A stretch of 64,000 nucleotides of DNA from a virus: IMG/VR virus record IMGVR_UViG_3300036818_000089, positions 11,797-75,796 of that record, one strand, 5' to 3'. Of the stretch, positions 3,284 through 64,000 are shown in pieces; the first letter of the stretch is position 1, and each line of letters starts with the position of its first letter. A program made the position numbers and the translations under genes. The notes below the pieces were generated by a model. It searched no databases. It worked only from the letters and a program-made list of their open reading frames with translations, and was not told where the DNA came from.

Positions 3284-3297
3284 CATCCGTCACCACA
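3284..3297 (+). promoter_or_regulatory. Dispersed start-associated motif CATCCGTCACCACA (exact copy)
   Basis: Exact copy 15 nt upstream of GTG 3313; see findings for all copies. Confidence 0.75.
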
Positions 3298-3312
3298 AGC
3301 CGGGAGCGCACC

Positions 3313-4218
3313 GTGCACGTCCTCATCACCGGCCACCGCGGTTTCGTCGGGCGTCACGTGTGGCGCGCGTGCGAAGCCCGCGGGGACAGTCTCGTCGGGG
3401 TCGACCTGGTCGACGGGCTGGACTGCCGCGAGTATTTCCGCCACGCCGCCCCGGATCGGTTCGACCTGGTCGTGCACTGCGCGGCGACGGTCGGCGGCCG
3501 CGGCATGATCGAAGGTGCCCAGTTGCGAGTCGCCACGAACCTGTCTCTCGATTCGGAGATGTTCGCGTGGGCGGCGCGGACCCGGCAGCGGCGGGTCGTG
3601 TACCTGTCGTCCAGTGCCGTCTACCCGGTCAAACTGCAGGTCTCGCACAGCATCGGATGGCGGCTCACCGAGTCTGACCTCGACCTGCAGCGCGCCACCG
3701 AACACGGTCTGGGTGGGATGCCGGACGCCACCTACGGGTGGGCGAAACTGTCGGGCGAAGTCCTCGCGCAGTATGCCCGCGACGCTGGGGTGCGGGTGCT
3801 GGTGGTGCGCCCGTTCTCCGGGTACGGCGAGGACCAGCACACTGACTATCCGTTCCCCGCGTTCATCCAGCGCGCCGGCCGCCGCGACCCCCAGTTCACG
3901 GTGTGGGGTGACGGCCAGCAGACGAGGGACTTCATTCACGTCGACGATGTCGTCGCAGGCATGTTGGAGATGGTCGCGCAGGACGTCGACGGTCCAGTGA
4001 ACTTGTGCACCGGGCGGCCGACCTCGATGGACGACCTCGCCCGGCTAGCCTGCGCCACTGCGGGATACGAGCCTGCGCTATGGCATATACGTGATGCGCC
4101 CAGCGGCGTCGCCTACCGGGTCGGGAACCCTGCGGTGATGTCCGGCTGGTACGAGCCGAAAGTCACCCTGGAGGAAGGCGTCACGCGCGCGTTGCGGCGT
4201 TTGGGTCTGGACGTGTGA
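3313..4218 (+). CDS. NAD-dependent epimerase/dehydratase (extended SDR)
   Basis: ITGHRGFVG Rossmann motif, SSSAVY, catalytic YGWAK, RPFSGYG and RDFIHVDD. Confidence 0.9.
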   Translation: MHVLITGHRGFVGRHVWRACEARGDSLVGVDLVDGLDCREYFRHAAPDRFDLVVHCAATVGGRGMIEGAQLRVATNLSLDSEMFAWAARTRQRRVVYLSSSAVYPVKLQVSHSIGWRLTESDLDLQRATEHGLGGMPDATYGWAKLSGEVLAQYARDAGVRVLVVRPFSGYGEDQHTDYPFPAFIQRAGRRDPQFTVWGDGQQTRDFIHVDDVVAGMLEMVAQDVDGPVNLCTGRPTSMDDLARLACATAGYEPALWHIRDAPSGVAYRVGNPAVMSGWYEPKVTLEEGVTRALRRLGLDV

Positions 4219-4444
4219 CGGGACCACCGTGGTGGTCCGGTGGCCCCGCGCGGCGGTTGTGGGAGGGGTAGCGATCCGAGCGAGTATGCCTCTACGTCAC
4301 GCGAAGTCGCGGGGGTTTGTGGGTGTTTCACGCTCGCCAAAACGCGATCGACCCGGATGGAGCAGTCCCCCCGCTTCGCCCCGCCTACCTACTCGCTCTT
4401 AAAACAGCGACCGTAGCGTAGTGCTACCCGTAACCGCCACGTGG

Positions 4445-4672
4445 CTACAGAGTCCACCCCCTAGGGGGATACACCACACTGTCATCCCCCCACTCCGGGG
4501 GCACCCGCATCACCTCGTCGGCGACCGTGACCGCCAGGTGCTGGCCAGCAGGTGACTGGGGGCCGCGTTTGCCCGCCGCCTTCGCCACACCCGCCACCAC
4601 GAGCCACATCAACAGCCACAACACCGCCGCAGAGACCAGCCACGGCCACCAATCGTGCACGAACACCTCCAC
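4445..4672 (-). CDS. Small membrane protein
   Basis: One strongly hydrophobic N-terminal helix. Confidence 0.5.
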   Translation of the reverse strand: MEVFVHDWWPWLVSAAVLWLLMWLVVAGVAKAAGKRGPQSPAGQHLAVTVADEVMRVPPEWGDDSVVYPPRGWTL

Positions 4673-4673
4673 C

Positions 4674-4924
4674 TCACGAACCCCCTTCCGGGTCGATCAC
4701 GACGGTGCACACCGGGCGACGCCAGTGATAGCCGACGGGTATGCCAACGGCGATGTCCAGCGCGAATCCGACACCAGCGGCGGCGAGGTGGGATCCGCTG
4801 GCCGCGACAACGTCCACGAGCAACGCCGCCAGGCACAGGGCCAGCAGCGCGAACGCCGCGGCGGCAGCGCGGGCTAACGCCACGACATCCGACGTGACAC
4901 CCGAACGGACATGGATGGTGCTCA
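4674..4924 (-). CDS. Small membrane protein (start uncertain)
   Basis: Two hydrophobic segments in the C-terminal part of ORF 4674..5144. Confidence 0.4.
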
Positions 4925-5091
4925 CAACCAGCCTCACAGGACATTGAGGCTGGCCGGACGCACACGGCCTGGGGGGAAGGACCGCGGCGCCCGGCCAGCG
5001 GGAAGCGGCACCCGGATCAACCAGGCCAGCGCCGCTCAGCCACAAGCGGACACAGGCCCTCACCAGGGCCGCGGGTAACAGGAGGGTCGGG

Positions 5092-5427
5092 TCAGGCGAC
5101 GCGGCGGTAGCCGGCAGCGAACGCGGCCGCCGCGACCTGGACACCGATGCCGTCGGTCAGCACACGGCTCGGGCTGTCGGCGCCGGCGAGAGCGTCCGAC
5201 GCGACCTGTGCGAGTCCGATGACCTCGTCCCGGTAGTAGCCGACCTTCCCGCGGTGGTATTCACGCGGGTCGATCTGCTCGGTGCTGTCGTCGGCGTCGA
5301 AGCGCACGTGGTGGTCGGCGGGGCGGCCGCAGGTGGGGAAGGTGCAGCGGCCGCGGTCGTCGATGGCGGGTGCGGCGCCGAGGCATCGTTTGTCGGTAAT
5401 CACGATGCGGTCAAATACGGTGTCCAT
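5092..5427 (-). CDS. Hypothetical protein with Cys/His motif
   Basis: CTFPTCGRPADHH; preceded by a variant of the dispersed motif at 5448..5461. Confidence 0.55.
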   Translation of the reverse strand: MDTVFDRIVITDKRCLGAAPAIDDRGRCTFPTCGRPADHHVRFDADDSTEQIDPREYHRGKVGYYRDEVIGLAQVASDALAGADSPSRVLTDGIGVQVAAAAFAAGYRRVA

Positions 5428-5571
5428 GTTTTGGCCTGCCTGGTCCGTGTGGTGACGGTTTGTACAGGCAGAACGCTACGCCCCGCACCCGACAGTGGCA
5501 ACCACCAATTTTAGGTCACATGACCGGCCACATGGCTTGCTGTCGCGAGCTAGAATCGTTAGCGTGACAAC

Positions 5572-5823
5572 ATGCCACCCAAGCCCGAACACGTCGCCAA
5601 GATCCGCGAGTGGACCACCCCCCGCGGCGGCGATCCGTCCCTCGCCAAGCAGTGGCGCGCAGCGGCCGGTCTGACCGCCACCAGCGCCGCCGGAGCGTTG
5701 GGGGTGGGCATACGGACACTCACCAGGTGGGAGACCGGCCGCGCGCAACCTCAAGGCCGCTACCTCGCCGACTACTACCGGTTCCTCAACCGGATCCGAC
5801 CGAAGGAAGGTGAAAGCCAGTGA
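5572..5823 (+). CDS. XRE/Cro-like HTH protein
   Basis: AAGALGVGIRTLTRWETGRAQP HTH; TAGAAT -10-like box at 5551..5556. Confidence 0.8.
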   Translation: MPPKPEHVAKIREWTTPRGGDPSLAKQWRAAAGLTATSAAGALGVGIRTLTRWETGRAQPQGRYLADYYRFLNRIRPKEGESQ

Positions 5824-6857: not shown

Positions 6858-6860
6858 CCC

Positions 6861-6874
6861 CATCCGTCACCACA
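6861..6874 (+). promoter_or_regulatory. Dispersed motif CATCCGTCACCACA (exact copy)
   Basis: Intergenic, 27 nt upstream of ATG 6902. Confidence 0.75.
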
Positions 6875-6901
6875 CGGTAAAGAACGGACAATCGAACAGT
6901 C

Positions 6902-8050
6902 ATGGCACAAGGCATGCGTGAGCGCGTCGAAGAACAGCGCGACCAGCAGCAGACCCCCAACCGCCCCGCGAGCCGGCCCAACCGCGGCGAACAGCGCCGC
7001 ACCGACGCCCAACGCGCCGCGTTCGTCCAGGCACCCACCATCCCCACGCTGAAGACCCGCAGGCCCACCGGTCGTGTCCCGCTGCCCCTCGTGCTGTGGG
7101 AGGGCGAGGAGAAGGCCGGGAAGTCCTGGGCGATCGCCGAACTCTCCGGCAACGAGCGTGTCGGCCGCACGTACTGGCTCGACGCCGGCGAAGGGTCCGC
7201 CGACGAGTACGGCGCCGTCCCGGGCGCTGACTTCGAGATCATCGACCACGACGGCACGTGGGGCGACATCCTCGCCCAGGTCGAAGCCGTCCGCACGGTC
7301 GCCCAAGCCGCCGCTGCGGCCGGTGAACCCCCTGTGGTGCTGGCTATCGACTCAATGACCGACCTGTGGGAGATGCTCACCGTCTGGGCCTATGAGAGAG
7401 CAGCCCGGACCGACTCGAACAAGGCCAAGCTGGCGAAGAACCGCGACGCCGAGGTCACCGTGCACCCGACTTTCTGGAATGCAGCGAACCGGCGCCACGA
7501 CCGGCTGATGACGATGCTGCGCGCGTTCCCCGGGATCGTGGTCATGACCGCGCTCGGCAAGGAGGTCGCGGTCATGGACGACCGGGGCAACCCGATCGAG
7601 GGCCGCAAGGAGTATCGGGTCGAGGCGCAGAAGAAGGTCGCCGCGAAAGCGTCGCTGTGGGTGCGGGTGTCGCGCACCGAGGAGCCGCTGGTGATCGGGG
7701 CCCGGTCGGTGAAGCACGGCGTGCGGCCCGGGAAAGATCGGCCGAAGCCGGCGCCCGGTCTCACCCTGGCCGGGGCGATCTTCGACGTGCTGGGCTGCGA
7801 CCCGGCCACCGCCACCGTGCGGGATGTCCGCGAACTCACCCCGGACGACGGCCAGGAACAGCTCGCCGCGGCCCGTGACGCCGTGTGGGAGTCCGCGCAG
7901 GAGCTCGGCTGGGACAGCGGCCAGTTGGAGGCCGATTACGTCTCCTGGTGCAAGGAACCGATCCGGGGGGCCACCGCGCAGGACCTGGACAACTACTTCG
8001 ACCAGATGCCGGTGCCCGACCACGGAGACGGTGAGGGGGCGCAGCAGTGA
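6902..8050 (+). CDS. AAA ATPase, Sak4-like recombination protein
   Basis: Walker A GEEKAGKS and Walker B LAIDS; adjacent to the YqaJ exonuclease. Confidence 0.7.
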   Translation: MAQGMRERVEEQRDQQQTPNRPASRPNRGEQRRTDAQRAAFVQAPTIPTLKTRRPTGRVPLPLVLWEGEEKAGKSWAIAELSGNERVGRTYWLDAGEGSADEYGAVPGADFEIIDHDGTWGDILAQVEAVRTVAQAAAAAGEPPVVLAIDSMTDLWEMLTVWAYERAARTDSNKAKLAKNRDAEVTVHPTFWNAANRRHDRLMTMLRAFPGIVVMTALGKEVAVMDDRGNPIEGRKEYRVEAQKKVAAKASLWVRVSRTEEPLVIGARSVKHGVRPGKDRPKPAPGLTLAGAIFDVLGCDPATATVRDVRELTPDDGQEQLAAARDAVWESAQELGWDSGQLEADYVSWCKEPIRGATAQDLDNYFDQMPVPDHGDGEGAQQ

Positions 8051-8421: not shown

Positions 8422-8542
8422 TGGGTAAGCGACGCTTCTACCTACCCCGTCATCTCGGCCGCGGGTGGCTTGTCCTGCTGTACGTGGCGGTCGGGCTGGC
8501 CACCGCGACGATCACCGCTGTCCTGATGTCTGGAGGTTCCCG

Positions 8543-20473: not shown

Positions 20474-20699
20474 GTGGAGCATCGGATCGGTGATCTGCTC
20501 CACAGCGGGTTTGCTGCTCCACCGCAGGTCAGGTCGCGTAGCAGACGTGGAGCAGCAGCGGAGCATGTGGTGACGTGGGCGGCTGGCTGCTACGTAGGTG
20601 CTCCACCGTCCGCTCCTATCTGCAGCAGACGTGTTTTGGCTGGTCAGCGTAGTAATCACCGCGGCCACCTCCCCGCTGATGCACTGGCCACTGCTTCAC
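20474..20699. repeat. Cluster of 8-bp GTGGAGCA/TGCTCCAC repeats (candidate clt or operator array)
   Basis: Exact copies at 20474, 20496, 20515, 20547 and 20599; near copies at 20558 and 20692. Confidence 0.65.
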
Positions 20700-22958: not shown

Positions 22959-23146
22959 GACGCCTCGTCCAGGTCGCTGAGTGCCTCGGGTGCGGTGATC
23001 ACGCGGGCGGCGTACCGCTCGCGGGCGGCGATGAGCTTCTTGCGGTTGCGGGAGCTGGGCCTCTCGCGGACCGCGAACTCGGCGTAGATGAGGACGGTCT
23101 GCGGGTCGGCGGCCTTCCGGGACCGCGCGTTGCGTCGGCTGGCCAT
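22955..23146 (-). CDS. Small basic hypothetical protein
   Basis: GGAGG RBS; dispersed motif at 23170..23183. Confidence 0.55.
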   Translation of the reverse strand: MASRRNARSRKAADPQTVLIYAEFAVRERPSSRNRKKLIAARERYAARVITAPEALSDLDEAS

Positions 23147-23205
23147 TGCTGGCCTCCGTTCAGGTTTCCGGTGGTGACGGATGGGGTGGAGCGGTGAGCG
23201 GTGGG

Positions 23206-23511
23206 TCAGGTCTGTCGCTTGAGGTTGCGGCGCTGCCGTTCGGACAGGCCGCCCCAGATCCCGAACCGTTCGTCATGGGTCAGGGCGTAGGCGAGGCAGT
23301 CCGCCCGGACGTCGCAGCCCTGGCAGATGCGTTTCGCTTCGCGCGTTGAGCCGCCCTTTTCGGGGAAGAACTCCTCGGGGTCGGTTTGCGCGCACAGCGC
23401 CCGGTCCTGCCATTCCTCGACGTCGGAGGGCACGAGATGTTCGACGAAGTCGGCGAACGCCTGCGCACGGGTGGGGATGGTGTTGACGGGGGCGGCCGTG
23501 GTGATGGTCAT
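23206..23511 (-). CDS. whiB: WhiB-family Fe-S regulator, WhiB2/WhiB-like
   Basis: WQDRALCAQTDPEEFFPEKGGSTREAKRICQGCDVRADCLAYAL..DERFGIWGGLSERQRR, with four Cys and the GIWGG turn. Confidence 0.93.
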   Translation of the reverse strand: MTITTAAPVNTIPTRAQAFADFVEHLVPSDVEEWQDRALCAQTDPEEFFPEKGGSTREAKRICQGCDVRADCLAYALTHDERFGIWGGLSERQRRNLKRQT

Positions 23512-23535: not shown

Positions 23536-23582
23536 TGTGGTGACGGATGGGGCTGGGGGTGCTCGTGTTGTGGTGACGGACG
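23536..23582 (-). promoter_or_regulatory. Two tandem copies of the dispersed motif upstream of whiB
   Basis: TGTGGTGACGGATG 23536..23549 and TGTGGTGACGGACG 23569..23582. Confidence 0.75.
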
Positions 23583-23590: not shown

Positions 23591-23713
23591 TGTTGACTCT
23601 CACGGTTTTCAGTGAGTGGGGTCAACATCGAGATCGAACGTAGCACGCGGACGACCTCCCATCAACCCCCAGCAACACTCCACCTTGCGGAACCCCCCTC
23701 AACCTTGCATGAT
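23591..23713. promoter_or_regulatory. Divergent promoter region for the transfer operon and its regulator
   Basis: Minus strand TTGATG-17-TACGTT (23665..23637); plus strand TTGCGG-17-CATGAT (23685..23713), 7 nt before ATG 23721; inverted repeat TGTTGAC...GTCAACA at 23591..23627. Confidence 0.55.
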
Positions 23714-27036: not shown

Positions 27037-27353
27037 CGGCGATGGGATCCTCCCGAACCGGCACCTCGGCGGTCGCCCGGCAGGTCGGCGGCTAATAGCC
27101 GCCAGGCGGCTGAACGTAAACCCGCAGGTCGGACCCAAACAGCCGCGAGGCGGCCGGACGGTGAGCCCAGCGGCAGCGGTGATGGATCTTCAGGTCGCGC
27201 TATGCTGTCCACGCCGCCTTATCTGCGGCCTTTCGGGGCCGACGCTCGGGTTTGATGACCCGTTCTGTTTGTGGTGACGGATGGGATGGCAATGGCGGCC
27301 CCAGCGAGCGAACCTAGGCGCTGGGGCCGCTCCCACGCCCACCGTGTGCGGGA

Positions 27354-27968
27354 TCAGTCGGTGGCGTCTCCCTGACCGTGCATGCCGCTGGTGTTGCGGC
27401 CGTGGTGGTACCACCACCATGTGCGTTGCGGCACGTGCACGATGCGGGCGTTTTTGGCGACGCAGCCGAGCGTGAAGGCGAAATCCTCGCCGTACCGCTG
27501 GCCGCCGATCGACTCGTCGACGGGCGGCGGGTGGAACCCGACGGCTTGGGCGAGCTCGGTGCGGACCAGGGTGGTGATGGTGGTTTGGTGCGGGTCGCTC
27601 GGGTCGAACGGTTTCCCGAAATGGCCGAGCGGGTCGGCTGTGCTGTCGCGGCCGGAGGCGTCGCGCACCTGGTAGTAGGAATACACGTAATCGGCGCCCT
27701 GCTGGGCTGTCCCGGCGAGCGCCTCAAGGTGGTCTCTCATCCATTCGTCATCGGAGTCAAGAAACGCCACCCACGGCGCCCGAACAGCCTGCAGGCCCTG
27801 GTCTCTCGTGCGCCACGCGCCGGCGCGGTGCCGGTCAACCACCACATGCAGCTCGGCCGGCTGAAGGGTCTGCGCCCACACCGACGCCACCGCCCGATCG
27901 AGCATCCCGTTGCGGACGCGCGCCGGGTGGGCGGGGATGACAACAGCGATGTCTCCGATGTCCAACAC
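27354..27968 (-). CDS. Glycosyltransferase, GT2 family
   Basis: IAVVIPAH, SVWAQT, AFLDSDDEW (DxD) and GED motifs. Confidence 0.85.
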   Translation of the reverse strand: MLDIGDIAVVIPAHPARVRNGMLDRAVASVWAQTLQPAELHVVVDRHRAGAWRTRDQGLQAVRAPWVAFLDSDDEWMRDHLEALAGTAQQGADYVYSYYQVRDASGRDSTADPLGHFGKPFDPSDPHQTTITTLVRTELAQAVGFHPPPVDESIGGQRYGEDFAFTLGCVAKNARIVHVPQRTWWWYHHGRNTSGMHGQGDATD

Positions 27969-28136
27969 GTCGTGCCCTTCTGTCCGGTGTCGGGTACAGA
28001 ACGGTCCCGCGTCCGACGGAAGGGGACGCGGGACCGTGTGTCGCCCTGGAGGGGCGGTCCGTGTGGTGACGGATGCAGCTGTGGTGGTTCCTGGACTGAG
28101 CCAATCACGGCGGTCCGCCACCGGTCAGGGTGCTGG

Positions 28137-28475
28137 TCAGATCGCGTCGTAGGTGCGGTGCCAGCAGGCGGGGTGTGCGTAGAGCTGCTCTCGTGTGCCG
28201 TCCAGACCCGAGGGCATCATGGGCTTGCCCTTCCGGATCAGGTCGGGGCATTCGGAGCAGGGCATGTCGCGAGGTGCGGCGGGCGCATCACCGGGGGTGT
28301 TTGACGCGCCCGCCGCGGTCTCGGATCGGCTCACGCAGCGGCCGAGCAGGGTAAGCGCGGGCGCGCGGTGTGCCGCCAAAGCGGCGAAGGCAACATGGGG
28401 CGAGGCCTCCCGGCAGGCGTCGGCTGTGGTGGTTCCTGTAACCAGTCTTCGGTTACGGATACACCCTGTCAACAC
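28137..28475 (-). CDS. Small protein with C-terminal CxxC...HxxC motif (start uncertain)
   Basis: CSECPDL...AHPAC; divergent from the XRE gene. Confidence 0.4.
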   Translation of the reverse strand: MLTGCIRNRRLVTGTTTADACREASPHVAFAALAAHRAPALTLLGRCVSRSETAAGASNTPGDAPAAPRDMPCSECPDLIRKGKPMMPSGLDGTREQLYAHPACWHRTYDAI

Positions 28476-33312: not shown

Positions 33313-33344
33313 GCCTGGTGTCCTTTGGTGGTTGTGGTGACGGA

Positions 33345-33704
33345 TCAGGGGGATGGGGGTAACTGCTGGGACATCGTCTTGACCTGCAGGCGCAGGAAGT
33401 TCAGTTCGGTCTGGGCGTCGGCCAGCTTCGAGTTCAAGTCCTCGGCTCTGGCGTTCGCGGACCGCAGTTGGCCGGTCATGTCGCGGATGGTGCGTTCGGC
33501 GCCGGAGAGCTTCGACTCCAACTCCTCCACCCGCTCCCGGTAGGGCTTGAGGAGTTCCACCGCCGACTTGACCACAAGGCGGTCGCCTTCGTCGGCCTGC
33601 TGGTCCCGCTCGGCGCGGCGTTTACGCCAGCCGTCGACGATGCCCCACAGGCCGGGGATCCACGCGGCCGCGCCGATCAGGCCGATCAGCAGCACGGCGT
33701 TCAC
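33345..33704 (-). CDS. Single-TM coiled-coil protein (lysis-associated)
   Basis: N-terminal TM plus a long heptad region. Confidence 0.65.
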   Translation of the reverse strand: MNAVLLIGLIGAAAWIPGLWGIVDGWRKRRAERDQQADEGDRLVVKSAVELLKPYRERVEELESKLSGAERTIRDMTGQLRSANARAEDLNSKLADAQTELNFLRLQVKTMSQQLPPSP

Positions 33705-48328: not shown

Positions 48329-48373
48329 GGCTGGGCGCCTCTCGGGATGGTGACGGGGGACTGGCGTCCGCGT

Positions 48374-48476
48374 CCCATCCGGGGCGCCGGGCGGTTACAC
48401 GTCCCCGGCGCGTGGCCGGGGTGGTGCCCATCCGGGCGTTCAGTTGTCTTCCCCGTGCGGCGTGCCCATCCGGGCG
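48374..48476 (-). repeat. Three CCC-GGAT-GGG hairpin repeats in the capsid gene leader
   Basis: CCCATCCGGG on + at 48374, 48427 and 48465; the last two share the 15-mer GTGCCCATCCGGGCG. Confidence 0.7.
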
Positions 48477-49827: not shown

Positions 49828-50940
49828 CTACTTCGCGGTGACGGAACGTCGGGGGCGTGGGCGGGGTTGCGGGCCGAACGCGCCGCGGGCGATGGCGATG
49901 CGGGCACGCTGCTGCACCGACTTCGGCAGATCAGTGCCGCGGGCGAGCAGGTTTCGGGCTGCGACGAGCCGCACGGATTCGGATTCGGACGGCAGCCGCC
50001 AGCCGGTGAGGATGGACCGTTCGGCTTCGCGTCGGAGCGCTGTGGGCAGGTCGGGGCCGTTGTAGCCGGGCACGGAACCGCGCCAAACCTCTGCGCGGCA
50101 TCGGCACCATGGGTGCCGCGGGGGTTGCCACAGGGCGGTGCCGGCCGGCCAGACGGCGAGCGGGCGGGTGCCGTAGGTGGCATCCCCGTCGAACGCGGCG
50201 TCGACCGACACGGTCCCTGACAGTGCCAGACAAACTACGCACGCGTTGCGTTCTGCTACCCAAACCCGCCCAAACCCCAGTCTCCGGGCAGTGTCCCTGC
50301 TGCCTTGGTTCGCGGCGTAGTTCACCACCCAATGCGCGATCCGCTCCGCCCCGGTCGCAGCCGACATCGCGCGGGTCACGATGTCCGCGACCTCCGACCA
50401 GCGGCCGATCTCACCCAGCCCATACGCTTCGTGCGCGGCTTGGGAGAGCCGGTCCCGCATGGATGGCTCGATCCGCGACAGTTCGCGGCGCACCAGCGCG
50501 TCCAACTGCTGGCCCAGATCGACGTGCCGGCGGATGTCGTCGACCTCGGCCGACAGATCCACACCCGGGTAGGCGTCGATGGCGGCCAGTTCGTCGAGGG
50601 TCTGCCGCCACCCAGTCTCCGCGGCCTTCACGGTCGCGGCCTCGACGCGCGACGCCACACCAGTCGGGTCGAGGTCCTCCAAACCGCGCAGCACATCGGC
50701 GGTGATGATGGCCATCTCGATCGGGTTGGCCTGCTCGTGCAAACCACCGGTGGTGCGGACCCAGGTGGCCATCATGCGGCGCGTGAACCGCTGCAACTGC
50801 AACCGGAACGGCGCCAACGCGCGGCGGGCGGTCTCCTCGATCGCCAGGATTTCCGCGGCACGCTCAGCGAGGTGTTCCCAGCCCGGCGGTGTACGCGGAG
50901 GCTGCGGAACAGGCTGCTGAGCGGGCGTGGTGGTTGCCAT
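49828..50940 (-). CDS. MuF-like minor head protein
   Basis: ACVVC and PPRHPWCRC motifs; follows the portal. Confidence 0.75.
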   Translation of the reverse strand: MATTTPAQQPVPQPPRTPPGWEHLAERAAEILAIEETARRALAPFRLQLQRFTRRMMATWVRTTGGLHEQANPIEMAIITADVLRGLEDLDPTGVASRVEAATVKAAETGWRQTLDELAAIDAYPGVDLSAEVDDIRRHVDLGQQLDALVRRELSRIEPSMRDRLSQAAHEAYGLGEIGRWSEVADIVTRAMSAATGAERIAHWVVNYAANQGSRDTARRLGFGRVWVAERNACVVCLALSGTVSVDAAFDGDATYGTRPLAVWPAGTALWQPPRHPWCRCRAEVWRGSVPGYNGPDLPTALRREAERSILTGWRLPSESESVRLVAARNLLARGTDLPKSVQQRARIAIARGAFGPQPRPRPRRSVTAK

Positions 50941-52725: not shown

Positions 52726-52856
52726 GACACCTCCTGGGGGTATACGGGGTTGACGCGACGGACCGTAACGGCGCCTACCGCCACGCCCCCGGGGGCTGCG
52801 GGAGACCGGCCCTACGGTGACCGGGTCACCACACCCCGCAGAGAGGCCAGCCAGCC

Positions 52857-53252
52857 ATGACCAGCGCCACGTCGACCGCTGCCCTGGGCAGTTACCACCA
52901 CTACCTGCACGGCCCCGCCGAGGACGACACGGTCGAGTTGGTGACGGTCGAACACGCAGCGCGCGGACACCTCGGCGAAGGTGCCAGCGTGGAGCAGGTG
53001 ACGGCGCTTGCGGAGGGCTACCGGCGCGCCATCAACCGCGTGCTGGACGGCACCGGGATCGTGCTGCACGGCGACGACTTTTACCTGCACATCTACGCCG
53101 ACGCGTTGGAAGTTGAGCAGGCGAACGAGTTGGTGCGGCGCACATTGGATGCGATCCAGATAGCGAAGGTCGAACCCGCCGTCGACCAGCCACCCGCCCC
53201 GCCGGTCGTCACCGTCGAGGTAACGCGCGAGCTGGCCGACGGCACCCGCTGA
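52857..53252 (+). CDS. Hypothetical protein on the opposite strand (moron-like)
   Basis: GAGG RBS; degenerate dispersed motif GTCACCACA at 52825..52833. Confidence 0.55.
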   Translation: MTSATSTAALGSYHHYLHGPAEDDTVELVTVEHAARGHLGEGASVEQVTALAEGYRRAINRVLDGTGIVLHGDDFYLHIYADALEVEQANELVRRTLDAIQIAKVEPAVDQPPAPPVVTVEVTRELADGTR

Positions 53253-57297: not shown

Positions 57298-57818
57298 TTG
57301 GACATCCCTACTACGTACCTCTGTGGCTGCGACTCGGCCTGGCAGATGAGCCACATCGCCCGGTTCCAGCGGGCGTCCGCGAGTGCGTTGTGCTCGCCGT
57401 GCTGCTCGGGTTTAGGTGGCTGCCCAACCGCGTCCCACAGTTGCATCAGCTCGCGGGTGAACATGGGGACCCCGCGCGGCAGGTCGATCATCCGCGGGCC
57501 GAGCAACTGGGCGAGGGAAACGTGGTCGTAGGCGCAGTAGTAGCCCCACAGTTCCAGGTCCTCCCAACTCGCGGTCGGGGCCAGGAACTCCAACACCCGC
57601 GCACGCATGCCGTCCAGCGGCATCCATGCCGGGTCGGAGCGGTCCGGGAGTTGGGCGAGCACGTTCTGCCGTACCCACTCGTTCGCGGTGTCGGGGTCGA
57701 AGTCGGTCGACACCGCGTACAACTCGCGGCCGGCGTCGTCGACCATGCCGACCGAGATCGGGGTGATGGTGCTGCCGTCCTCGATGAATTCGAAGTCGTA
57801 GAAGATGCGTCGGGGCAT
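57294..57818 (-). CDS. DEDDh 3'-5' exoribonuclease (RNase AS/DUF5051-like)
   Basis: FYDFEFIEDG, ISVGMV, YYCAYDHV and HNALADARW motifs. Confidence 0.85.
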   Translation of the reverse strand: MPRRIFYDFEFIEDGSTITPISVGMVDDAGRELYAVSTDFDPDTANEWVRQNVLAQLPDRSDPAWMPLDGMRARVLEFLAPTASWEDLELWGYYCAYDHVSLAQLLGPRMIDLPRGVPMFTRELMQLWDAVGQPPKPEQHGEHNALADARWNRAMWLICQAESQPQRYVVGMSK

Positions 57819-57912
57819 CGCTGGGTGGTCTCCGATCAGTGTGGTGACAGATGGGGTGGAGCGGTTCAAGATCAGTCTTGCCCGCCGGTGACGGATGGAG
57901 ACTTCCCGCAGG

Positions 57913-58524: not shown

Positions 58525-58628
58525 GTCCCGGGTCCTTCGTCCCACGCACGGTGGTGTGGATCATGCGGTGGTTCCTCCTGGTGGTGGCCGGTGTGGTGGA
58601 CCGGCAGGGGAGCGGGGCGGGCCGTGGG

Positions 58629-58802
58629 TTACGTGGCGTCTGTGTCGATGAGGTCGGCGGCCGCGCGTAGTACCTCGGCCAGGCGGGACCGGACGATGTG
58701 CACGGTGCCCTCCGAGGTCACGGGGATCTCGATGTGGCCGACCTCGTACTCGGCGGTGTCACCGAGGCGCATGCGGATCGGGAGGCGGCTGGTGGCTGCC
58801 AT
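58629..58802 (-). CDS. Small hypothetical protein
   Basis: Coupled to the upstream gene. Confidence 0.45.
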   Translation of the reverse strand: MAATSRLPIRMRLGDTAEYEVGHIEIPVTSEGTVHIVRSRLAEVLRAAADLIDTDAT

Positions 58803-59083
58803 CAGAGGCGCCCGTTCGCTTTGGCGGCGTGCAGTTCGGCTGTGGTGTGCGGGTGGTCTTTGCCCTTCAGGCCGAGGGCTTTGGTGTGCTCTGCGGTCGA
58901 CATGCCGGTGGCCTCTTGGTGGAGGTTGCCGCACAGGCCATGCACCATCTCGGCCGGGACGTGGCGGCCCATGACGGCGAGGCAGCGGTAGTAGTCGTCA
59001 GGTGCGCCCCACCCGATCTCCGCTGCGCCCGCGCCGTGCAGCGCCCATTTCTTGAGCTGGGGTGGCATGTCGCTGTGGGCCAC
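58802..59083 (-). CDS. Conserved small actinophage protein
   Basis: GGAGG RBS; GAAEIGWG.PDD..RC...GLCGNLH..ATG motif. Confidence 0.55.
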   Translation of the reverse strand: MAHSDMPPQLKKWALHGAGAAEIGWGAPDDYYRCLAVMGRHVPAEMVHGLCGNLHQEATGMSTAEHTKALGLKGKDHPHTTAELHAAKANGRL

Positions 59084-59159
59084 GGTAGGCGCCTCCCCGC
59101 TGATCGGCGTGACGGAGCGTCACACGCCGGACCATACGAGCGGGTACCGCCACCAGCCG

Positions 59160-59507: not shown

Positions 59508-59622
59508 CGACGGCGACCAGTTCCGTTCTCGGCCGCGTACAGCATGGACCGCGCCGCGTCGAGGTGTTCGAGGGAGTGGCCGACGATCTCATTCCACGTG
59601 GGGAGTTCGTGCGCTCTCGCCA

Positions 59623-60078: not shown

Positions 60079-60103
60079 GGTGGTGGTGGTTCCTTCCTGG
60101 TGG

Positions 60104-60334
60104 TTAGCGGGTTGGGTAGCCCTGGTGGTCGTCGTACAGGTCAAGGTGCTCGGTGGTGGTGCCGTCTGTCTCGATGACGGTTGCCTCGTACCACCACGGG
60201 CGACGGTCCCGCAGTTTCGGCGAGTCCGGGCGCGGTAGCCGATCCTTGATGGTGACCCAGCGGCCCCACGCGTAGATCGGCATGCCAGCGGTCATGTCCC
60301 GCACGCGAACGCGTCTGGCATGGTCCTGGGTCAT
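60104..60334 (-). CDS. Small hypothetical protein
   Basis: ATGA coupling. Confidence 0.45.
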   Translation of the reverse strand: MTQDHARRVRVRDMTAGMPIYAWGRWVTIKDRLPRPDSPKLRDRRPWWYEATVIETDGTTTEHLDLYDDHQGYPTR

Positions 60335-61017: not shown

Positions 61018-61547
61018 CAGGCCACCGCCGTCCCCACAGCCGCCACCGCGAGCCACAGCCAATGCCAGGACTGGTCCAGCGCGTACGCCCCGGTGCCGAG
61101 GGTCGGGTTGTCGATCGCGGGGACCTCGAACCCGTTCATGTCCCACAAGCTGACCAGCTGGTTGTCCTGGGTCAGCGCCTTGACCGGGCGGGGCGCGCCG
61201 AGCGTCCAGAACTCGCCCTTGCCCGCGAGGCGCGCGAGCGCGGCGAGAGTGCCGCGCCTGTCGGCCCAGTAGTGGGTGACCGCCGACACCGCCTGCCCCG
61301 CTACGAACCCGGCGGGGCTGATCGGCAGCCGGAACAGCCACCACATCGCAGCAACCGAGGCCGCGGTGACCAGCGTGTAGGAGGCGACGTGCCCAGCGCA
61401 CGCCCGGCGACCAACCCAACCGGCGTGTCCCTTGCGGATCGCCTGGCGGGAGGTTTGGACCCAGTGGTCGGCCACGTTGTGGGCGACCAGCAGTGTGGGC
61501 AGCACGACCGCGAAGGTGACGGCCGCGCCCGTTAGGGCTTGGTTCAT
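61017..61547 (-). CDS. DUF3307 family membrane protein
   Basis: HNVADHWVQT, H..SY, THYWADRR and LDQSWH motifs. Confidence 0.8.
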   Translation of the reverse strand: MNQALTGAAVTFAVVLPTLLVAHNVADHWVQTSRQAIRKGHAGWVGRRACAGHVASYTLVTAASVAAMWWLFRLPISPAGFVAGQAVSAVTHYWADRRGTLAALARLAGKGEFWTLGAPRPVKALTQDNQLVSLWDMNGFEVPAIDNPTLGTGAYALDQSWHWLWLAVAAVGTAVA

Positions 61548-61598
61548 GGAGGGTGATCTCCGTTCTGTCCGAGTGTGGTGACGGATGGGATGTGGGAC

Positions 61599-61784
61599 CT
61601 AGCGGCGGGGGATGAGGGCGGTGCGGCCGTGCCCGTTCGGACACCGCGGGGCCGGGTTTTTCTTGGCGTACCGGATCTGGACGGCGTCGCATGAGGCACA
61701 GCCGTACCGGTAGGCCCTGCTCCTGCTGCCGCCAGGGTCGGGTGGCAGCGGCGACAGGTTGAACGTCTGCGAGATGCTGGCCAT
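61599..61784 (-). CDS. Small zinc-ribbon protein
   Basis: CASC...CPNGH; dispersed motif at 61806..61819. Confidence 0.5.
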   Translation of the reverse strand: MASISQTFNLSPLPPDPGGSRSRAYRYGCASCDAVQIRYAKKNPAPRCPNGHGRTALIPRR

Positions 61785-61846
61785 ATGGGTCCTTCTCCTG
61801 TTCCTTGTGGTGACGGATGGGATTTCGTTGGTACATAAGGAAACGG

Positions 61847-62977
61847 TCACATCTTCATGTGCTTGAGCGGATTGTCGCGGATCCGGTCGGCCGCCCGGAC
61901 GTAGCCCGCTGGGACGGGGGACTGGGGGTTCCAGCGGCCGTGCCCGGCCCACAGCGGCATCGGCACGCCGTCGGACTCGGCCTGCGTGGCGAATCCGGCG
62001 CGCAGGCCGTGCGCCGAGTACTCCCACCAGCGGGCCAGACCAGCCTCACGGGCGGCGCGTTTGACGATCTCGTTGATGGCGTGGCCGCTGATCTTCGGGT
62101 AGCGGTACAGCGTGTCGTTCTGGGTGACCGAACGGAACAGATACCCGCTGGTCACACCCCGCTCGGCCAGCGCGGCGAGGTAGTCGTGAAGCAGCCCGAC
62201 CGGGTCGGTGTCCACGTGCTCGCCGGCCGGGACCGGAACCAGCTCGCCGTGGGCGTCCTTGTCTGTCTTCGACGTGCGGATGAGGACGTCCAGGTAGCGG
62301 TCCTGGACGGTGACGTCCTCGATGCGCAGCGCGGCCAGCTCGGAGCGGCGCCCGGCCAGCGCCCACCCGATGACCAGCAGCAGGCGGTCCCGTTTCCCGG
62401 CCAGTGTCGGCGGGTCGCTACAGGCCGCGGACATGAGCTGGAGGCGGTCCCGGGTGATCGGGGGTGCCTTCTTCTCGCGGCGCCCGGCGTCGACGAGGTC
62501 ACGCTGGTGGCCGCGCTGCACCAGCCGCGAGGGCAGCGTGACCTCCTTGCTGAGCGGCGGGAAGCCCTCGGCCTGGTTCAACGCGGAGATCGCGCCGCGG
62601 TGATGCTTGATCGTGTTCGTGGCGCGGCCGAGGTCGGCCAGGTGGGCGGTGTAGTCGGCCAGGGTCCCGGCCGCAGTGGGGTAGGGGACACGTCCGTTGC
62701 TCGTGCACCATGCCTCGAACTGCCGTCGCACTCCGGCGTAGGCGCGGCTCGTGTTGGCTGGCACGCCGCTGGCGATCCGCTCGGCCGTACCCGGCAGCAC
62801 CGTGTCGGCGGCGGGCACCGGCACGGCGGGGGAGCGGACGAGTTGGCGTACCCGTTCGCGGGTGACACCGAGCCCTGCACCGATCTGGTCGAATGTCCAG
62901 CCCTCGGCGTGGCGAGTGCGGGCCCACTCGCCCCGGTCCTCGCTGGCGGCCGGGGAAGTGGGAACCAGTTCGGTCAC
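61847..62977 (-). CDS. Tyrosine recombinase (Cre-like resolvase type) with N-terminal HTH
   Basis: RDRLLL...RRSEL, SKTD, HGLRAGFAT, HGRW and catalytic GY; N-terminal GWTFDQIGAGLGVTRERVRQL. Confidence 0.88.
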   Translation of the reverse strand: MTELVPTSPAASEDRGEWARTRHAEGWTFDQIGAGLGVTRERVRQLVRSPAVPVPAADTVLPGTAERIASGVPANTSRAYAGVRRQFEAWCTSNGRVPYPTAAGTLADYTAHLADLGRATNTIKHHRGAISALNQAEGFPPLSKEVTLPSRLVQRGHQRDLVDAGRREKKAPPITRDRLQLMSAACSDPPTLAGKRDRLLLVIGWALAGRRSELAALRIEDVTVQDRYLDVLIRTSKTDKDAHGELVPVPAGEHVDTDPVGLLHDYLAALAERGVTSGYLFRSVTQNDTLYRYPKISGHAINEIVKRAAREAGLARWWEYSAHGLRAGFATQAESDGVPMPLWAGHGRWNPQSPVPAGYVRAADRIRDNPLKHMKM

Positions 62978-63122
62978 GTGGTCGCCTTCCGTGGTCCGGG
63001 TACGTAGGTCATCCGATCGTGGCACTTCGGGCACTTCGCCCCCCGGGCTGGCCGCGCAGGCAGGACGCGTTCGTTGCCACACGCGCACCGGTACACGCAC
63101 TCCGGGCGGCGGCCAAGGTCGC

Positions 63123-63308
63123 TCATCGCGCCTTCCTCGTTGGCAGGGTCTCGAAGACGCCGCTCTCGTTCTCGACCTGGACCACCTCAGCGTGGACCGG
63201 GTTCTCCTGGCACGGGGTCAGAAGCGGTGAGTCCGGGTACTCGGTGGCGTCTTCGATCAGCCGCTGCGCCTCGGCGTCGTTGTTGACGCGGAGCAGGATG
63301 TACTTCAC
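63123..63308 (-). CDS. Small hypothetical protein
   Basis: GAGGAG RBS. Confidence 0.5.
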   Translation of the reverse strand: MKYILLRVNNDAEAQRLIEDATEYPDSPLLTPCQENPVHAEVVQVENESGVFETLPTRKAR

Positions 63309-63399
63309 GGCGCTGGTCTCCTCGGTGGTCGGGGACTCATTCAGGCCGGTCTCGGTTCCGGCGACGCCTCACGGCGTTTCGTCCAGACGGATGAGTGGG

Positions 63400-63828
63400 T
63401 TAGCGGCGGCGTCCCCTGCGCTGGGTCGCCTCGTCCGCGATCATCTGATCGGCGACACGCACCGCATCCGCGAAACCGCCCTCCGCAGCGACCGTGGTGT
63501 CATCATCGCGGCGGTGGTCATGGACAACCGCCCGCCCGCCGCGTTCCAACTCGACCACGGTGAAGACGTGCTCACGGGTCCAGTAGTCCATGAACGGCTG
63601 CGACCGCAGACCGATCGGGAGGTCGCCGTCGTAGGCCGCCATCCATTTGAGGTCCCCGGGCCAGTCGATGGGGTAGCCGTCGATGGCGATGCCCTGGGTG
63701 TACAGGGCGGTGATGGCGTTGACTCGTTCGGCTTCGGTGTCGCTGTGGCCGGCGAGGTACTGCCGGTTCACGGCCGCTTGGTAGTCGGTGTTCTTTTGCT
63801 CGGTCCGGCTGATTCGGTTTCGCGGCAA
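63400..63828 (-). CDS. Hypothetical protein
   Basis: GAGGA RBS before TTG 63828; dispersed motif at 63851..63864. Confidence 0.5.
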   Translation of the reverse strand: MPRNRISRTEQKNTDYQAAVNRQYLAGHSDTEAERVNAITALYTQGIAIDGYPIDWPGDLKWMAAYDGDLPIGLRSQPFMDYWTREHVFTVVELERGGRAVVHDHRRDDDTTVAAEGGFADAVRVADQMIADEATQRRGRRR

Positions 63829-64000
63829 GGCGCTGGTCCTCTCTGGTGGTTGTGGTGACGGATCAGGGTCGGTGGTCGGACTGCCAGGGCCGTGCCCGTC
63901 ACACTCGGGCACGACGCCAAGCGGTCAGGGGGTTTCGGTCAGGCCGCAGCGCTTCGCGTCACGGGCCGAGATCGACAGGACCGTCTCGCCGGCCGGGACC

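What the first reader, a model, noticed from the sequence alone, without database searches (positions are those of the whole stretch)
3284..63864. Element-wide, strictly oriented 14-bp start-associated motif CATCCGTCACCACA
Seen: 7 exact copies (3284+, 6861+, 23536-, 27270-, 28062-, 61574-, 61806-), 5 with one mismatch (23170-, 23569-, 33333-, 57840-, 63851-) and 2 looser (5448-, 57884-). Position-consistent degenerate cores also precede the capsid (48346-), scaffold (49834-), 52857 (52820+) and 59083 (59105-) genes. It is asymmetric, essentially intergenic, on the sense strand of the downstream ORF, and in 10 of the 14 main copies ends 15-27 nt before a start codon, just 5' of the RBS. It spans early, transfer, lysis and head modules, so it ties them into one unit. 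Established analogues: mycobacteriophage cluster A stoperators, cluster K start-associated sequences and phiC31 conserved promoter motifs, none with this sequence as far as I recall. Inference: a repressor stoperator, a phage-specific promoter or activator site, or an RNA processing or translation signal.
Basis: partly seen in the sequence, partly recalled or inferred. Interest (0 to 1): 0.85.

Follow-up and report, generated by a model that had tools for sequence, protein, structure and literature searches.

The report
Oriented start-anchored motif in an actinophage
A 14-letter DNA word sits, always pointing the same way as the gene, about 20 letters before the start of some 15 genes of a 76-kb circular actinobacterial phage and nowhere else in the 9-Mb genome bin; it is a real regulatory signal of a kind already seen in other actinobacterial phages, and how it works is still open.

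Summary
CATCCGTCACCACA occurs 7 times exactly and 5 times with one mismatch, all on one 75.8-kb contig with matching ends. Only 2 one-mismatch copies lie in the other 9.0 Mb.

All 13 strong sites are intergenic and co-oriented with the local genes. Ten end 15-27 nt before a start codon, always 5' of the ribosome-binding site. This anchoring to the start holds in long gaps too.

The word is not itself a standard promoter. Four copies lie just downstream of SigA-like -35/-10 pairs, in the transcribed leader. The others sit in short gaps inside operons.

A related phage from another metagenome keeps the core at orthologous places while the flanks diverge. It also shows gain, loss and shifting of sites. 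A complete 76-kb relative with 65% terminase identity has no such word.

No homologue of the L5 repressor gp71 was found by sequence.

- **Most likely (about 0.4):** a phage-specific mRNA-leader element.
- **Close rival (about 0.3):** an L5-like operator and roadblock ("stoperator") site read on DNA.
- **Less likely (about 0.1):** a factor-dependent promoter.

The closest layout is the unexplained 18-bp motif of Microbacterium Cluster EC phages. This scan has noted comparable oriented motifs, with other sequences, in at least 7 other uncultured phage genomes. I class it as a new member of a known kind, of moderate interest.

The parts
3284..3297 (+). Exact motif in a 75-nt gap inside an operon. 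It ends 15 nt before the GTG at 3313 of the NAD-dependent epimerase gene and 4 nt before GGGAG.
5448..5461 (-). AAACCGTCACCACA, 20 nt before the ATG at 5427 (111-aa protein of unknown function). It lies in the leader downstream of a SigA-like promoter (-35 TTGCCA at 5496-5501, -10 TAGCGT at 5473-5478). Core and promoter are conserved in relative L485.
6861..6874 (+). Exact motif starting 4 nt after the stop codon of the YqaJ-type exonuclease gene and ending 27 nt before the ATG at 6902 (AAA_24 ATPase). The same junction in L485 carries an exact copy.
23170..23183 (-). One-mismatch copy, 23 nt before the ATG at 23146 (63-aa gene). It shares an 11-nt 5' flank with the 57840 copy.
23536..23549 (-). 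Exact copy, 24 nt before the WhiB start at 23511. It is the second of a tandem pair spaced 33 bp apart.
23569..23582 (-). CGTCCGTCACCACA, the first of the tandem pair. It starts 13 nt after the -10 box of a SigA-like promoter (-35 TTGACC at 23620-23625, -10 GAGAGT at 23596-23601) that heads the WhiB and transfer operon.
27270..27283 (-). Exact 'orphan' copy (18-nt ATCCCATCCGTCACCACA) in the gap between two convergent genes. It lies just after a strong terminator-like hairpin and has no start codon within 50 nt. On the + strand its complement lies between hairpins.
28062..28075 (-). Exact copy 93 nt before the GTG at 27968 of a GT2 glycosyltransferase gene. A 12-bp G+C-rich hairpin lies in between.
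33333..33346 (-). GATCCGTCACCACA, 20 nt before the ATG at 33312 (papain-like peptidase). Its first two bases overlap the TGA stop of the upstream gene. It shares about 23 nt with the 63851 copy.
52820..52833 (+). Weaker copy (core GTCACCACA exact), 23 nt before the ATG at 52857. This is the only + strand gene in the head region.
57840..57853 (-). CATCTGTCACCACA, 21 nt before the ATG at 57818 (Rv2179c-like exoribonuclease). It lies in a 36-nt segment flanked by 7-nt direct repeats (ACTGATC) that is missing at the same junction in relative L251.
57884..57897 (-). CATCCGTCACCGGC, with 3 mismatches. Doubtful: the orthologous sequence in L251 is not a motif.
61574..61587 (-). Exact copy, 26 nt before the ATG at 61547 (DUF3307 protein, followed by a GmrSD-type nuclease gene).
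61806..61819 (-). Exact copy, 21 nt before the ATG at 61784 (61-aa gene) and 27 nt after the stop of the gene for the HTH-bearing tyrosine recombinase.
63851..63864 (-). GATCCGTCACCACA, 22 nt before the TTG at 63828 (142-aa gene), at the start-proximal end of a gap of about 165 nt that crosses the contig junction.
48346..48359 (-). Degenerate core (CCGTCACCATC), 17 nt before the capsid gene start. It forms the 3' arm of a leader hairpin that relatives keep with another spelling.
49834..49847 (-). Degenerate core (TCCGTCACCGCG), 24 nt before the start of the scaffold gene.

Best explanation
The word is a phage-specific cis-element carried in the 5' untranslated leader of about 15-20 messages of a 75.8-kb circular actinobacterial tailed phage (a candidate phage-plasmid).

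It is transcribed in two ways. In some cases it forms the first 5-25 nt of a primary transcript from an ordinary SigA-type promoter. In the others it lies inside a polycistronic RNA, 4-12 nt in front of the Shine-Dalgarno sequence.

My best reading is that it is read on the RNA by one phage-specific partner, a protein or a complementary RNA. That partner would set translation initiation or local message stability for this set of mainly non-structural and accessory genes.

Shown: existence, specificity to the element, strict sense orientation, anchoring to the start codon, position in transcribed leaders, conservation in a relative, and site turnover. Inferred: that recognition is on RNA rather than DNA, and that there is a dedicated partner.
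For: 1. Anchoring to the start, not the stop. In the six gaps of 51-165 nt, the motif always ends 15-26 nt before the start, while its distance from the upstream stop runs from 11 to about 130 nt. The joint chance within those gaps is below 1e-3. Over all intergenic placements P is about 7e-12.
2. It always lies 5' of the ribosome-binding site and never overlaps it.
3. L5 stoperators measured with the same script lie 11-123 nt from starts, and in long gaps 4 of 6 sit next to the upstream stop.
4. None of the 16 core copies lies in coding sequence, although 84% of the element is coding.
5. Four copies lie downstream of SigA-like promoters, so they are transcribed. Promoter boxes and core are both conserved in relative L485, while the sequence between them is not.
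6. The core is 11 contiguous invariant bases, which is more usual for pairing between nucleic acids than for a single helix-turn-helix.
7. The flanks often carry further C/A-rich CACCAC-like tracts. CGGA, the complement of the motif's UCCG, is enriched at or before the ribosome-binding site of motif genes: 7 of 11 against 11 of 61.
Against: - No RNA data exist for this element, so no RNA 5' end or expression is known.
- No RNA-binding protein was identified.
- The copy at 27270 follows a terminator-like hairpin and has no nearby gene. The copy at 28062 is 93 nt from its gene.
- The most highly expressed genes (capsid, scaffold) have only degenerate cores, which argues against a simple translational enhancer.
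- Predicted pairing with the ribosome-binding site is short (4-5 bp) and not supported by compensatory change. The CGGA enrichment is inflated by shared descent of leader subfamilies.
- Near-exact 13-14-bp asymmetric sites in many copies are exactly what the experimentally proven L5 repressor uses.
Confidence: 0.4

Rival explanations
1. A DNA operator and 'stoperator' array. One phage repressor binds the asymmetric 14-bp site as in Cluster A mycobacteriophages. At the four promoter-proximal copies it blocks initiation or promoter escape. At the intra-operon copies it stops elongating RNA polymerase in an orientation-dependent way. This would silence harmful genes (WhiB and transfer operon, recombination genes, peptidase, nucleases) while the element is carried.
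For: - The information pattern is the same as in L5: many near-identical asymmetric 13-14-bp sites, orientation locked to transcription, in promoters and in short gaps (PMC9283540).
- There is a tandem pair 33 bp apart at the head of the WhiB and transfer operon.
- The 27270 copy, behind a terminator between convergent genes, makes sense as a roadblock.
- The element looks temperate or plasmid-like and encodes at least 9 helix-turn-helix proteins.
- Relatives with other regulators lack the word.
Against: - No gp71 homologue was found by blastp, tblastn or phmmer. Two candidates match no repressor structure by sequence.
- Strict anchoring 15-31 nt before starts has no reason in a roadblock model and differs from L5.
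- No strong copies lie in the 22-kb virion operon, although it has gaps of 51-240 nt.
- The regulators shared with the motif-bearing relative are only 42-71% identical, while the core is identical.
Confidence: 0.3
2. A promoter for a phage-directed transcription class. The 14-mer would hold a -10-like element, a discriminator and the start point, with no -35 box. It would be read by host RNA polymerase carrying a phage factor, as with T4 late promoters or as proposed for the Cluster EC motif and its phage sigma factor.
For: - Anchoring to starts and short leaders are natural for promoters.
- A contiguous conserved block next to the start point is typical of phage-specific promoters.
- The copy at 27270 directly follows a terminator-like hairpin.
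- The copy at 57840 precedes the block that leads into the terminase gene.
- Authors of the Cluster EC work link their look-alike motif to a phage sigma factor (PMC9224216).
- A 98-124-aa LuxR/GerE-type protein (8047/8125-8421) weakly matches a PHROG family named 'sigma factor'.
Against: - Four copies sit 3-18 nt downstream of good SigA-like -10 boxes.
- The word is not A/T-rich (5 of 14) and has no conserved upstream partner.
- No RNA polymerase and no sigma factor with a region 2 was found.
- The LuxR-type gene is replaced by another gene in the relative that keeps the motif.
- Many copies lie in 32-60-nt gaps inside operons.
Confidence: 0.12
3. Mainly a recombination or cassette-boundary sequence, like the PeSL cassettes of T4-type phages. 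The repeated leaders would serve as short homologies for shuffling accessory genes, with no dedicated regulator.
For: - Copies fall into subfamilies that share 20-35 nt of flank: 23170 with 57840, 33333 with 63851, 6861 with 23536, 27270 with 61574 and 61806, and 5448 with the copy 1 kb left of the window.
- The GT2 gene is bracketed by two copies plus hairpins. In relative G303 it sits next to the epimerase gene instead.
- A 36-nt presence/absence difference is flanked by 7-nt direct repeats.
- In L251 an exact copy precedes an unrelated lipoprotein-like gene.
- PeSL precedent: PMC2839356.
Against: - The ends of the segments that differ between C13 and its relatives do not coincide with motif copies.
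- Recombination alone does not explain strict sense orientation, the fixed distance to starts, or conservation of the 11-nt core while the flanks diverge.
Confidence: 0.08

Closest known systems
18-bp asymmetric motif of Microbacterium phages of Cluster EC, with a similar one in Cluster EI (Jacobs-Sera et al. 2020, PMC7302621; PMC9224216)
   Same: About 12 copies per genome in small intergenic gaps. All are in one orientation, 21-30 bp before the start codon and upstream of the ribosome-binding site. They occur mostly, but not only, among non-structural genes. The function is unknown.
   Different: The sequence is unrelated (TAGaCTATaGGTgTaAgC). Those phages are lytic and carry a sigma-factor gene that the authors link to the motif. 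Here no true sigma factor was found, and four copies lie behind ordinary SigA-like promoters.
Operator and stoperator sites of Cluster A mycobacteriophages (L5 gp71, TipsytheTRex repressor; PMC9283540, PMC5559632)
   Same: Asymmetric 13-14-bp word in many near-identical copies, with orientation locked to transcription. It is present both at promoters and in short gaps inside operons. The element is temperate or plasmid-like, as some Cluster A phages with parABS are.
   Different: No gp71-type repressor was found by sequence. L5 sites are not anchored to starts (11-123 nt, often next to the upstream stop, and several overlap the ribosome-binding site) and occur in both genome arms including the virion genes. 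Here strong sites are absent from the virion operon. The sequences are unrelated.
Start-associated sequences (SAS and ESAS) of Cluster K mycobacteriophages (Pope et al. 2011, PMC3203893)
   Same: A 13-bp asymmetric word in 11-19 copies and one orientation, tied to gene starts. It is confined to non-structural genes, absent from the host genome, and associated with different gene families in related phages. The function is unknown.
   Different: SAS lie 3-8 bp from the start and contain the ribosome-binding site itself. This word lies 15-31 nt upstream and is separate from the ribosome-binding site. No ESAS-type inverted repeats accompany it.
PeSL (promoter-early stem-loop) cassettes of T4-type phages (Arbiol et al. 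2010, PMC2839356)
   Same: A repeated regulatory sequence at the 5' side of variable accessory genes. Copies share longer flanks, and related phages differ in whether a copy is present.
   Different: PeSL is a sigma-70 early promoter plus a terminator stem-loop. This word is not a standard promoter, and only 2-3 copies are next to hairpins.

Membership tests
Cluster A operator/stoperator system | Asymmetric 13-14-bp site in many near-identical copies across the genome | tested here: met
   7 exact and 5 one-mismatch copies; 13 sites at 23 bits or more
Cluster A operator/stoperator system | Orientation locked to the direction of transcription | tested here: met
   13 of 13 strong sites, and all 16 core copies that can be assigned, are in sense orientation. 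This includes 5448-, which lies between the + strand sites 3284 and 6861.
Cluster A operator/stoperator system | Sites both at promoters and in short gaps inside operons | tested here: met
   4 copies lie 3-18 nt after SigA-like -10 boxes; at least 9 lie in gaps of 32-94 nt between co-directional genes
Cluster A operator/stoperator system | gp71-type repressor (N-terminal HTH plus Stoperator domain) | tested here: not met
   L5 gp71 against all 115 called proteins and the six frames of C13: best E-values 0.11-1, all noise. Two HTH candidates match no such chain in the PDB by sequence. No structure-level comparison was run.
Cluster A operator/stoperator system | Sites distributed through both arms, including virion genes, and not anchored to start codons | tested here: not met
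   No strong copy lies between 33.4 and 56.5 kb. Distances to starts are 15-27 nt here, against 11-123 nt for L5 sites measured with the same script.
Cluster A operator/stoperator system | Repressor binding that blocks elongation in one orientation only | not testable with these tools
   Needs gel-shift and reporter assays
Cluster K start-associated sequences | Word lies 3-8 bp from the start codon and contains the Shine-Dalgarno core | tested here: not met
   The word ends 15-31 nt before starts, and GGAG-type sites lie 4-12 nt downstream of it
Cluster K start-associated sequences | One orientation, non-structural genes, absent from the host genome | tested here: met
   The 'host' here is the rest of a metagenome bin.
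Cluster K start-associated sequences | About half of the sites carry ESAS (17-bp imperfect inverted repeats) just upstream | tested here: not met
   Upstream flanks show no shared inverted repeat
Cluster EC/EI-type upstream motif (Microbacterium phages) | About 12 co-oriented copies in small gaps, 21-30 bp before starts and upstream of the ribosome-binding site | tested here: met
   13 strong copies, 10 of them 15-27 nt before starts and all 5' of the ribosome-binding site. Published description read.
Cluster EC/EI-type upstream motif (Microbacterium phages) | Sequence related to TAGaCTATaGGTgTaAgC, and a phage sigma-factor gene present | tested here: not met
   The sequence is unrelated. The only candidate is a 98-124-aa LuxR/GerE-type HTH protein with a weak match to a PHROG named 'sigma factor', and it is not kept in the motif-bearing relative.
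PeSL-type mobile regulatory cassettes | Composite of a host-type early promoter and a stem-loop flanking variable genes, with replacement end points at the repeats | tested here: inconclusive
   The GT2 gene is bracketed by copies plus hairpins, and one 36-nt indel exists. However, the word is not a standard promoter, and the end points of replaced segments are not at copies.

The most novel reading that the evidence does not exclude
The 'orphan' copy at 27270-27283 is not a target but the gene of the partner.

Read on the + strand, the 3' untranslated end of the 25936-27036 gene carries the exact 18-20-nt complement of the extended motif. This stretch lies between a small hairpin and the shared terminator hairpin, which is the usual build of a small RNA derived from a 3' untranslated region.

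One phage-made antisense RNA would then pair just upstream of the ribosome-binding site of about 15 phage messages, forming a virus-encoded small-RNA regulon that would also explain the 11-14 contiguous invariant bases.
Probability: 0.06. Interest if true: 0.8.

Novelty: new member of a known kind. Interest (0 to 1): 0.42.

Why it matters
Oriented, gene-start-linked repeats have been described in several actinobacteriophage clusters (A, K, EC, EF, EI). Only the Cluster A sites have a proven mechanism.

This case adds a clean example from an uncultured lineage whose terminase relatives lie in Pseudonocardiaceae and Streptomyces. Two features sharpen the question. The word is separate from the ribosome-binding site yet anchored to the start codon. 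And it occurs both behind ordinary promoters and inside operons.

That combination argues against the promoter reading and sets RNA-level control against DNA roadblock control in a way that one pair of reporter fusions could settle. Practically, the word is a compact signature for recognising this phage lineage and for correcting its gene starts.

It does not by itself open a long-standing problem, because the host is not cultured and no expression data exist.

Tried and rejected
- The closest terminase relatives (86-87% identity, Logan assemblies) could therefore not be fetched.
- **No expression data.** No RNA holder was listed for this DNA. Laying contigs of the two soil DNA runs showed only the source sample and low-depth fragments, with nothing at the motif sites.
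A two-copy pattern found only coding tandem repeats. A motif-plus-AACGGAG pattern found only chance hits.
- **Protein-based searches for relatives.** The portal query found none in genome contigs and only 2 distant relatives in 300 genomes of the family. No near DNA match exists in the phage or plasmid collections.
- **Analogous word in relatives.** I found none in about 60 terminase-centred loci or in the complete genome G303; the repeats seen there are iterons or coding repeats.
- **The E. coli-style promoter and terminator scan** was uninformative at 68% G+C.
- **ECF-type promoter idea** (CGTC as the -10 box): no conserved -35 box at 15-18 nt.
- **Known RNAs.** No Rfam family or tRNA lies in the window.
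- **Pairing of the motif with the ribosome-binding site.** The stems are short, and the one variant site shows no compensatory change.
- **G-poor flanks.** The shift is only modest: G 0.24 against 0.30-0.32.
- **Complement of the motif elsewhere.** None beyond the trivial opposite strand turned up on C13, and in the rest of the bin only scattered low-count hits, which I did not examine individually. The 16S rRNA 3' end is not in the bin, so pairing with rRNA could not be tested.
- **Orientation with replication** (Chi- or KOPS-like): rejected because 5448- lies between 3284+ and 6861+.
- **The 284-aa HTH protein next to the tandem pair** has no close relative in IMG/VR.
- **Literature search for the sequence strings** found only unrelated primers.
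- **Structure predictions** of candidate regulators were not run.

Full report

Yes. CATCCGTCACCACA occurs 7 times exactly, at the stated coordinates and strands, with none in 100 shuffles. Within two mismatches there are 13 sites against 0.98 expected.

The window is the minus strand of contig C13 (75,824 bp) of a 9.08-Mb assembly of 287 contigs. All 7 exact copies, and 12 of the 14 copies with at most one mismatch, lie on C13.

A weight matrix built from the sites gives a two-peaked result. Thirteen sites score 23-35 bits, and nothing else on C13 exceeds 13.8 bits. In the other 9.0 Mb only one site reaches 23 bits.

The 9-mer core GTCACCACA has 16 copies on C13. None lies inside a called gene. 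That is 26 times its density elsewhere in the assembly.

C13 has identical 23-bp ends, so it closes into a circle of 75,801 bp.

One caveat applies. The assembly is 95% complete and 8% contaminated, and its best DNA holder is a soil metagenome. 'Host' therefore means the rest of a bin.

**2. What carries it?**

I called genes with a codon-usage log-likelihood trained on long ORFs of the same assembly. Family searches then showed the following:
- a tailed-phage core: portal, major capsid and large terminase (the terminase named from homologues rather than Pfam);
- WhiB, a YqaJ-type exonuclease, an AAA_24 ATPase, a papain-like peptidase, an Rv2179c-like exoribonuclease and a GmrSD-type nuclease;
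- glycosyltransferases and an epimerase;
- ParA, an 828-aa AAA protein and a tyrosine recombinase with an N-terminal HTH;
- outside the window, a CI-like HTH protein, a MerR/Xis-like HTH protein and DpdA.

Terminase homologues place the lineage among prophages of Lentzea, Actinosynnema, Saccharothrix, Amycolatopsis and Streptomyces. Recurrent contigs are 74-77 kb long. One complete relative (G303, 76,231 bp) has direct terminal repeats.

Earlier notes of this scan call the element a candidate conjugative phage-plasmid. I did not test that beyond seeing ParA and the AAA protein.

**3. Anatomy of the sites**

*Orientation.* All 13 strong sites have the orientation of the local genes. This includes 5448-, which lies between 3284+ and 6861+, so the polarity follows genes and not replication.

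*Distance to starts.* Ten sites end 15-27 nt before a start codon chosen without reference to the motif. Only 4.4% of intergenic placements would lie 15-31 nt before a same-strand start, giving P about 7e-12.

*Anchoring in long gaps.* In the six gaps of 51-165 nt, the word always ends 15-26 nt before the start. Its distance from the upstream stop ranges from 11 to about 130 nt.

*Relation to the ribosome-binding site.* GGAG-type sites follow 4-12 nt after the word and never overlap it.

*Further copies.* Copies with the exact 9-mer core precede the + strand gene at 52857 and two genes left of the window. Degenerate CCGTCACC cores lie 17-31 nt before the capsid and scaffold genes and two others.

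*Exceptions.*
- 27270 lies in a gap between convergent genes, just after a strong hairpin, with no start codon within 50 nt.
- 28062 is 93 nt from its gene, with a 12-bp G+C-rich hairpin in between.
- A core-only copy at 20566 lies in a repeat-rich gap and may be chance.

**4. It is not itself a standard promoter**

Four copies have SigA-like -35/-10 pairs (TTGnnn, 17-19 nt, TAnnnT or GAGAGT) directly upstream. In each, the -10 box ends 3-18 nt before the 9-mer core. These are 5448, 23569 and two copies left of the window.

About 0.6 such pairs would be expected by chance in the 17 windows, by my estimate from base composition. These four are exactly the copies that head divergent or first-in-operon genes. 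They are also the copies whose first four bases depart from CATC.

For two of them, the -35 box, the -10 box and the core are all conserved in relative L485, while the sequence between -10 and core is not. The word therefore lies in the initially transcribed leader.

The remaining copies sit in gaps of 32-94 nt between co-directional genes, with no promoter-like pair. The word is not A/T-rich and has no conserved upstream partner.

**5. Relatives**

*Distant relatives.* The complete relative G303 (terminase 65% identical) has neither the word nor any other dominant repeated 10- or 12-mer. I found no start-associated word of this kind in about 60 other terminase-centred loci either.

*One close relative carries it.* Two contigs from one other metagenome (IMG/VR sample 3300036795) carry the word. 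I assume they belong to one related phage; that is an inference.
- **L251/G301** (31 kb, terminase 84% identical) has one exact copy. It lies after a stop codon, 11 nt before GGAG and 22 nt before the ATG of a lipoprotein-like gene that C13 lacks.
- At the exoribonuclease junction, L251 lacks a 36-nt segment that holds the word in C13. In C13 that segment is flanked by 7-nt direct repeats.
- **L485** (14 kb) is syntenic with window -1161 to 11042 at 69-77% nucleotide identity. It keeps an exact copy at the exonuclease/AAA_24 junction.
- L485 also keeps the exact 11-nt core in the leader of the 111-aa gene, and copies on both sides of a divergent promoter region. One of those copies sits about 25 nt away from its C13 counterpart.
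- Before the epimerase gene, L485 has only CCGTCACCGGC.

So the core is kept while the flanks diverge, and sites are gained, lost and moved. That is the behaviour of a functional cis-element.

*Subfamilies.* Copies also fall into subfamilies that share 20-35 nt of flank. This shows spread by copying, and it means the sites are not fully independent.

**6. Weighing the mechanisms**

*The roadblock reading.* I measured L5 stoperators with the same approach. Twenty-one sites lie within 2 mismatches, and they are consistently antisense as the consensus is written. Their distances to downstream starts are 11-123 nt. In long gaps, four of six sit 0-12 nt after the upstream stop, and four lie inside genes.

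The present word differs from that pattern. It is anchored to starts, it never overlaps the ribosome-binding site, it is never in coding sequence, and strong copies are absent from the virion operon.

L5 gp71 has no homologue on C13. This weakens membership of the Cluster A system. It does not rule out an unrelated two-domain repressor working the same way. The near-exact asymmetric sites, the promoter-proximal copies, the tandem pair 33 bp apart and the copy behind a terminator all fit that model.

*The promoter reading.* Start anchoring favours either a promoter or an RNA-level element. The promoter reading is weakened by section 4 and by the lack of any sigma factor or RNA polymerase. The only candidate is a LuxR/GerE-type HTH protein with a weak match to a PHROG named 'sigma factor', and the motif-bearing relative has another gene in its place.

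*The RNA-level reading.* This explains orientation, intergenic restriction, start anchoring and occurrence in both primary and internal leaders with one assumption. It has weak extra support from three things:
- 11 contiguous invariant bases;
- C/A-rich flanks (G 0.24 against 0.30-0.32);
- an excess of CGGA at or before the ribosome-binding site (7 of 11 against 11 of 61).

Predicted stems are short, and there is no compensatory evidence.

*My weights.* RNA-level leader element 0.40, DNA operator/stoperator-like 0.30, factor-dependent promoter 0.12, cassette-boundary sequence without a regulator 0.08, other 0.10.

**7. Comparison with what is known**

- **Closest in layout:** the 18-bp asymmetric motif of Microbacterium Cluster EC phages. 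It has 12 co-oriented copies, 21-30 bp before starts and upstream of the ribosome-binding site, and its function is unknown (PMC7302621). A later paper links it to a phage sigma factor (PMC9224216).
- **Cluster K SAS** share the start association, orientation, restriction to non-structural genes and absence from the host. But they contain the ribosome-binding site and lie 3-8 bp from the start (PMC3203893).
- **Cluster A stoperators** are the only proven mechanism (PMC9283540).
- **PeSL cassettes** (PMC2839356) are the precedent for repeated regulatory leaders that travel with accessory genes.
- The sequence strings themselves appear in no relevant paper in the library.
- This scan has recorded comparable oriented gene-start motifs, with other sequences, in at least 7 other uncultured phage genomes.

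**8. Verdict**

This is a real, selected, element-specific cis-signal. It is a new member of the known but mostly unexplained class of oriented start-linked repeats of actinobacteriophages, and it is not a member of the Cluster A or Cluster K systems by their defining features. The mechanism is unresolved.

The analysis does narrow the question: the word is not a standard promoter, it is transcribed, and it is anchored to the start codon. One reporter experiment could decide between RNA-level and DNA-level control. Interest is moderate.

Noticed in passing
L500:4306-7824 (C13 outside the window, about 4.3-7.8 kb left of window position 1): DpdA (E 6e-117), a Vut_1/YhhQ-like transporter and a DUF1643 protein lie in one leftward block. 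This suggests that the phage puts a 7-deazaguanine derivative into its DNA.
   Followed up: no
window 48329-48400 (-) and the same place in L251, L252, L256, L261, L265, L386: The capsid gene leader holds a conserved inverted repeat just before the ribosome-binding site (relatives: GTGATGGGG ... CCCCATCAC; C13: GGATGGGA ... CCATCC). This is a likely 5' stem-loop of the capsid message. Its 3' arm resembles the 5' part of the motif.
   Followed up: partly
window 5505-5575 (+): The 83-aa XRE-type HTH gene (ATG at 5572) starts 6 nt after a TAGCGT -10 box, so its message is probably leaderless. A palindrome, GGTCACATGACC, lies between the divergent promoters. Both features are conserved in L485.
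   Followed up: partly
window 59090-59125 (-) and L251: The 93-aa gene at 58802-59083 is 89% identical in L251, the most conserved small gene. It is preceded by the palindrome GTGACG-N3-CGTCAC, whose half-site matches the motif core CGTCAC.
   Followed up: no
window 28085-28100 and 28436-28451 (-): The 16-mer CAGGAACCACCACAGC occurs twice: once in the leader behind a SigA-like promoter (TTGACA, 17 nt, AAGACT) of a small gene, and once directly upstream of the 28062 motif copy.
   Followed up: no
window 27293-27330: A 12-bp G+C-rich hairpin between convergent genes lacks a T-run on either strand. It is probably a two-way terminator.
   Followed up: partly
P0010, P0033, P0047 (terminase relatives): Some large-terminase homologues are 890-916 aa long and carry PF14528 (LAGLIDADG-type). 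This suggests an intein or homing endonuclease inserted in the terminase of related phages.
   Followed up: no
C13 ends (window 63992-64014 and the far left end of the contig): The contig's first and last 23 bases are identical, so it closes into a circle of 75,801 bp. The complete relative G303 is classed as having direct terminal repeats.
   Followed up: partly
L341:720-960: A Rhizomonospora prophage relative has a cluster of at least 6 GCTGTCCCACGG repeats in 250 bp, which looks like an iteron or origin-type array.
   Followed up: no
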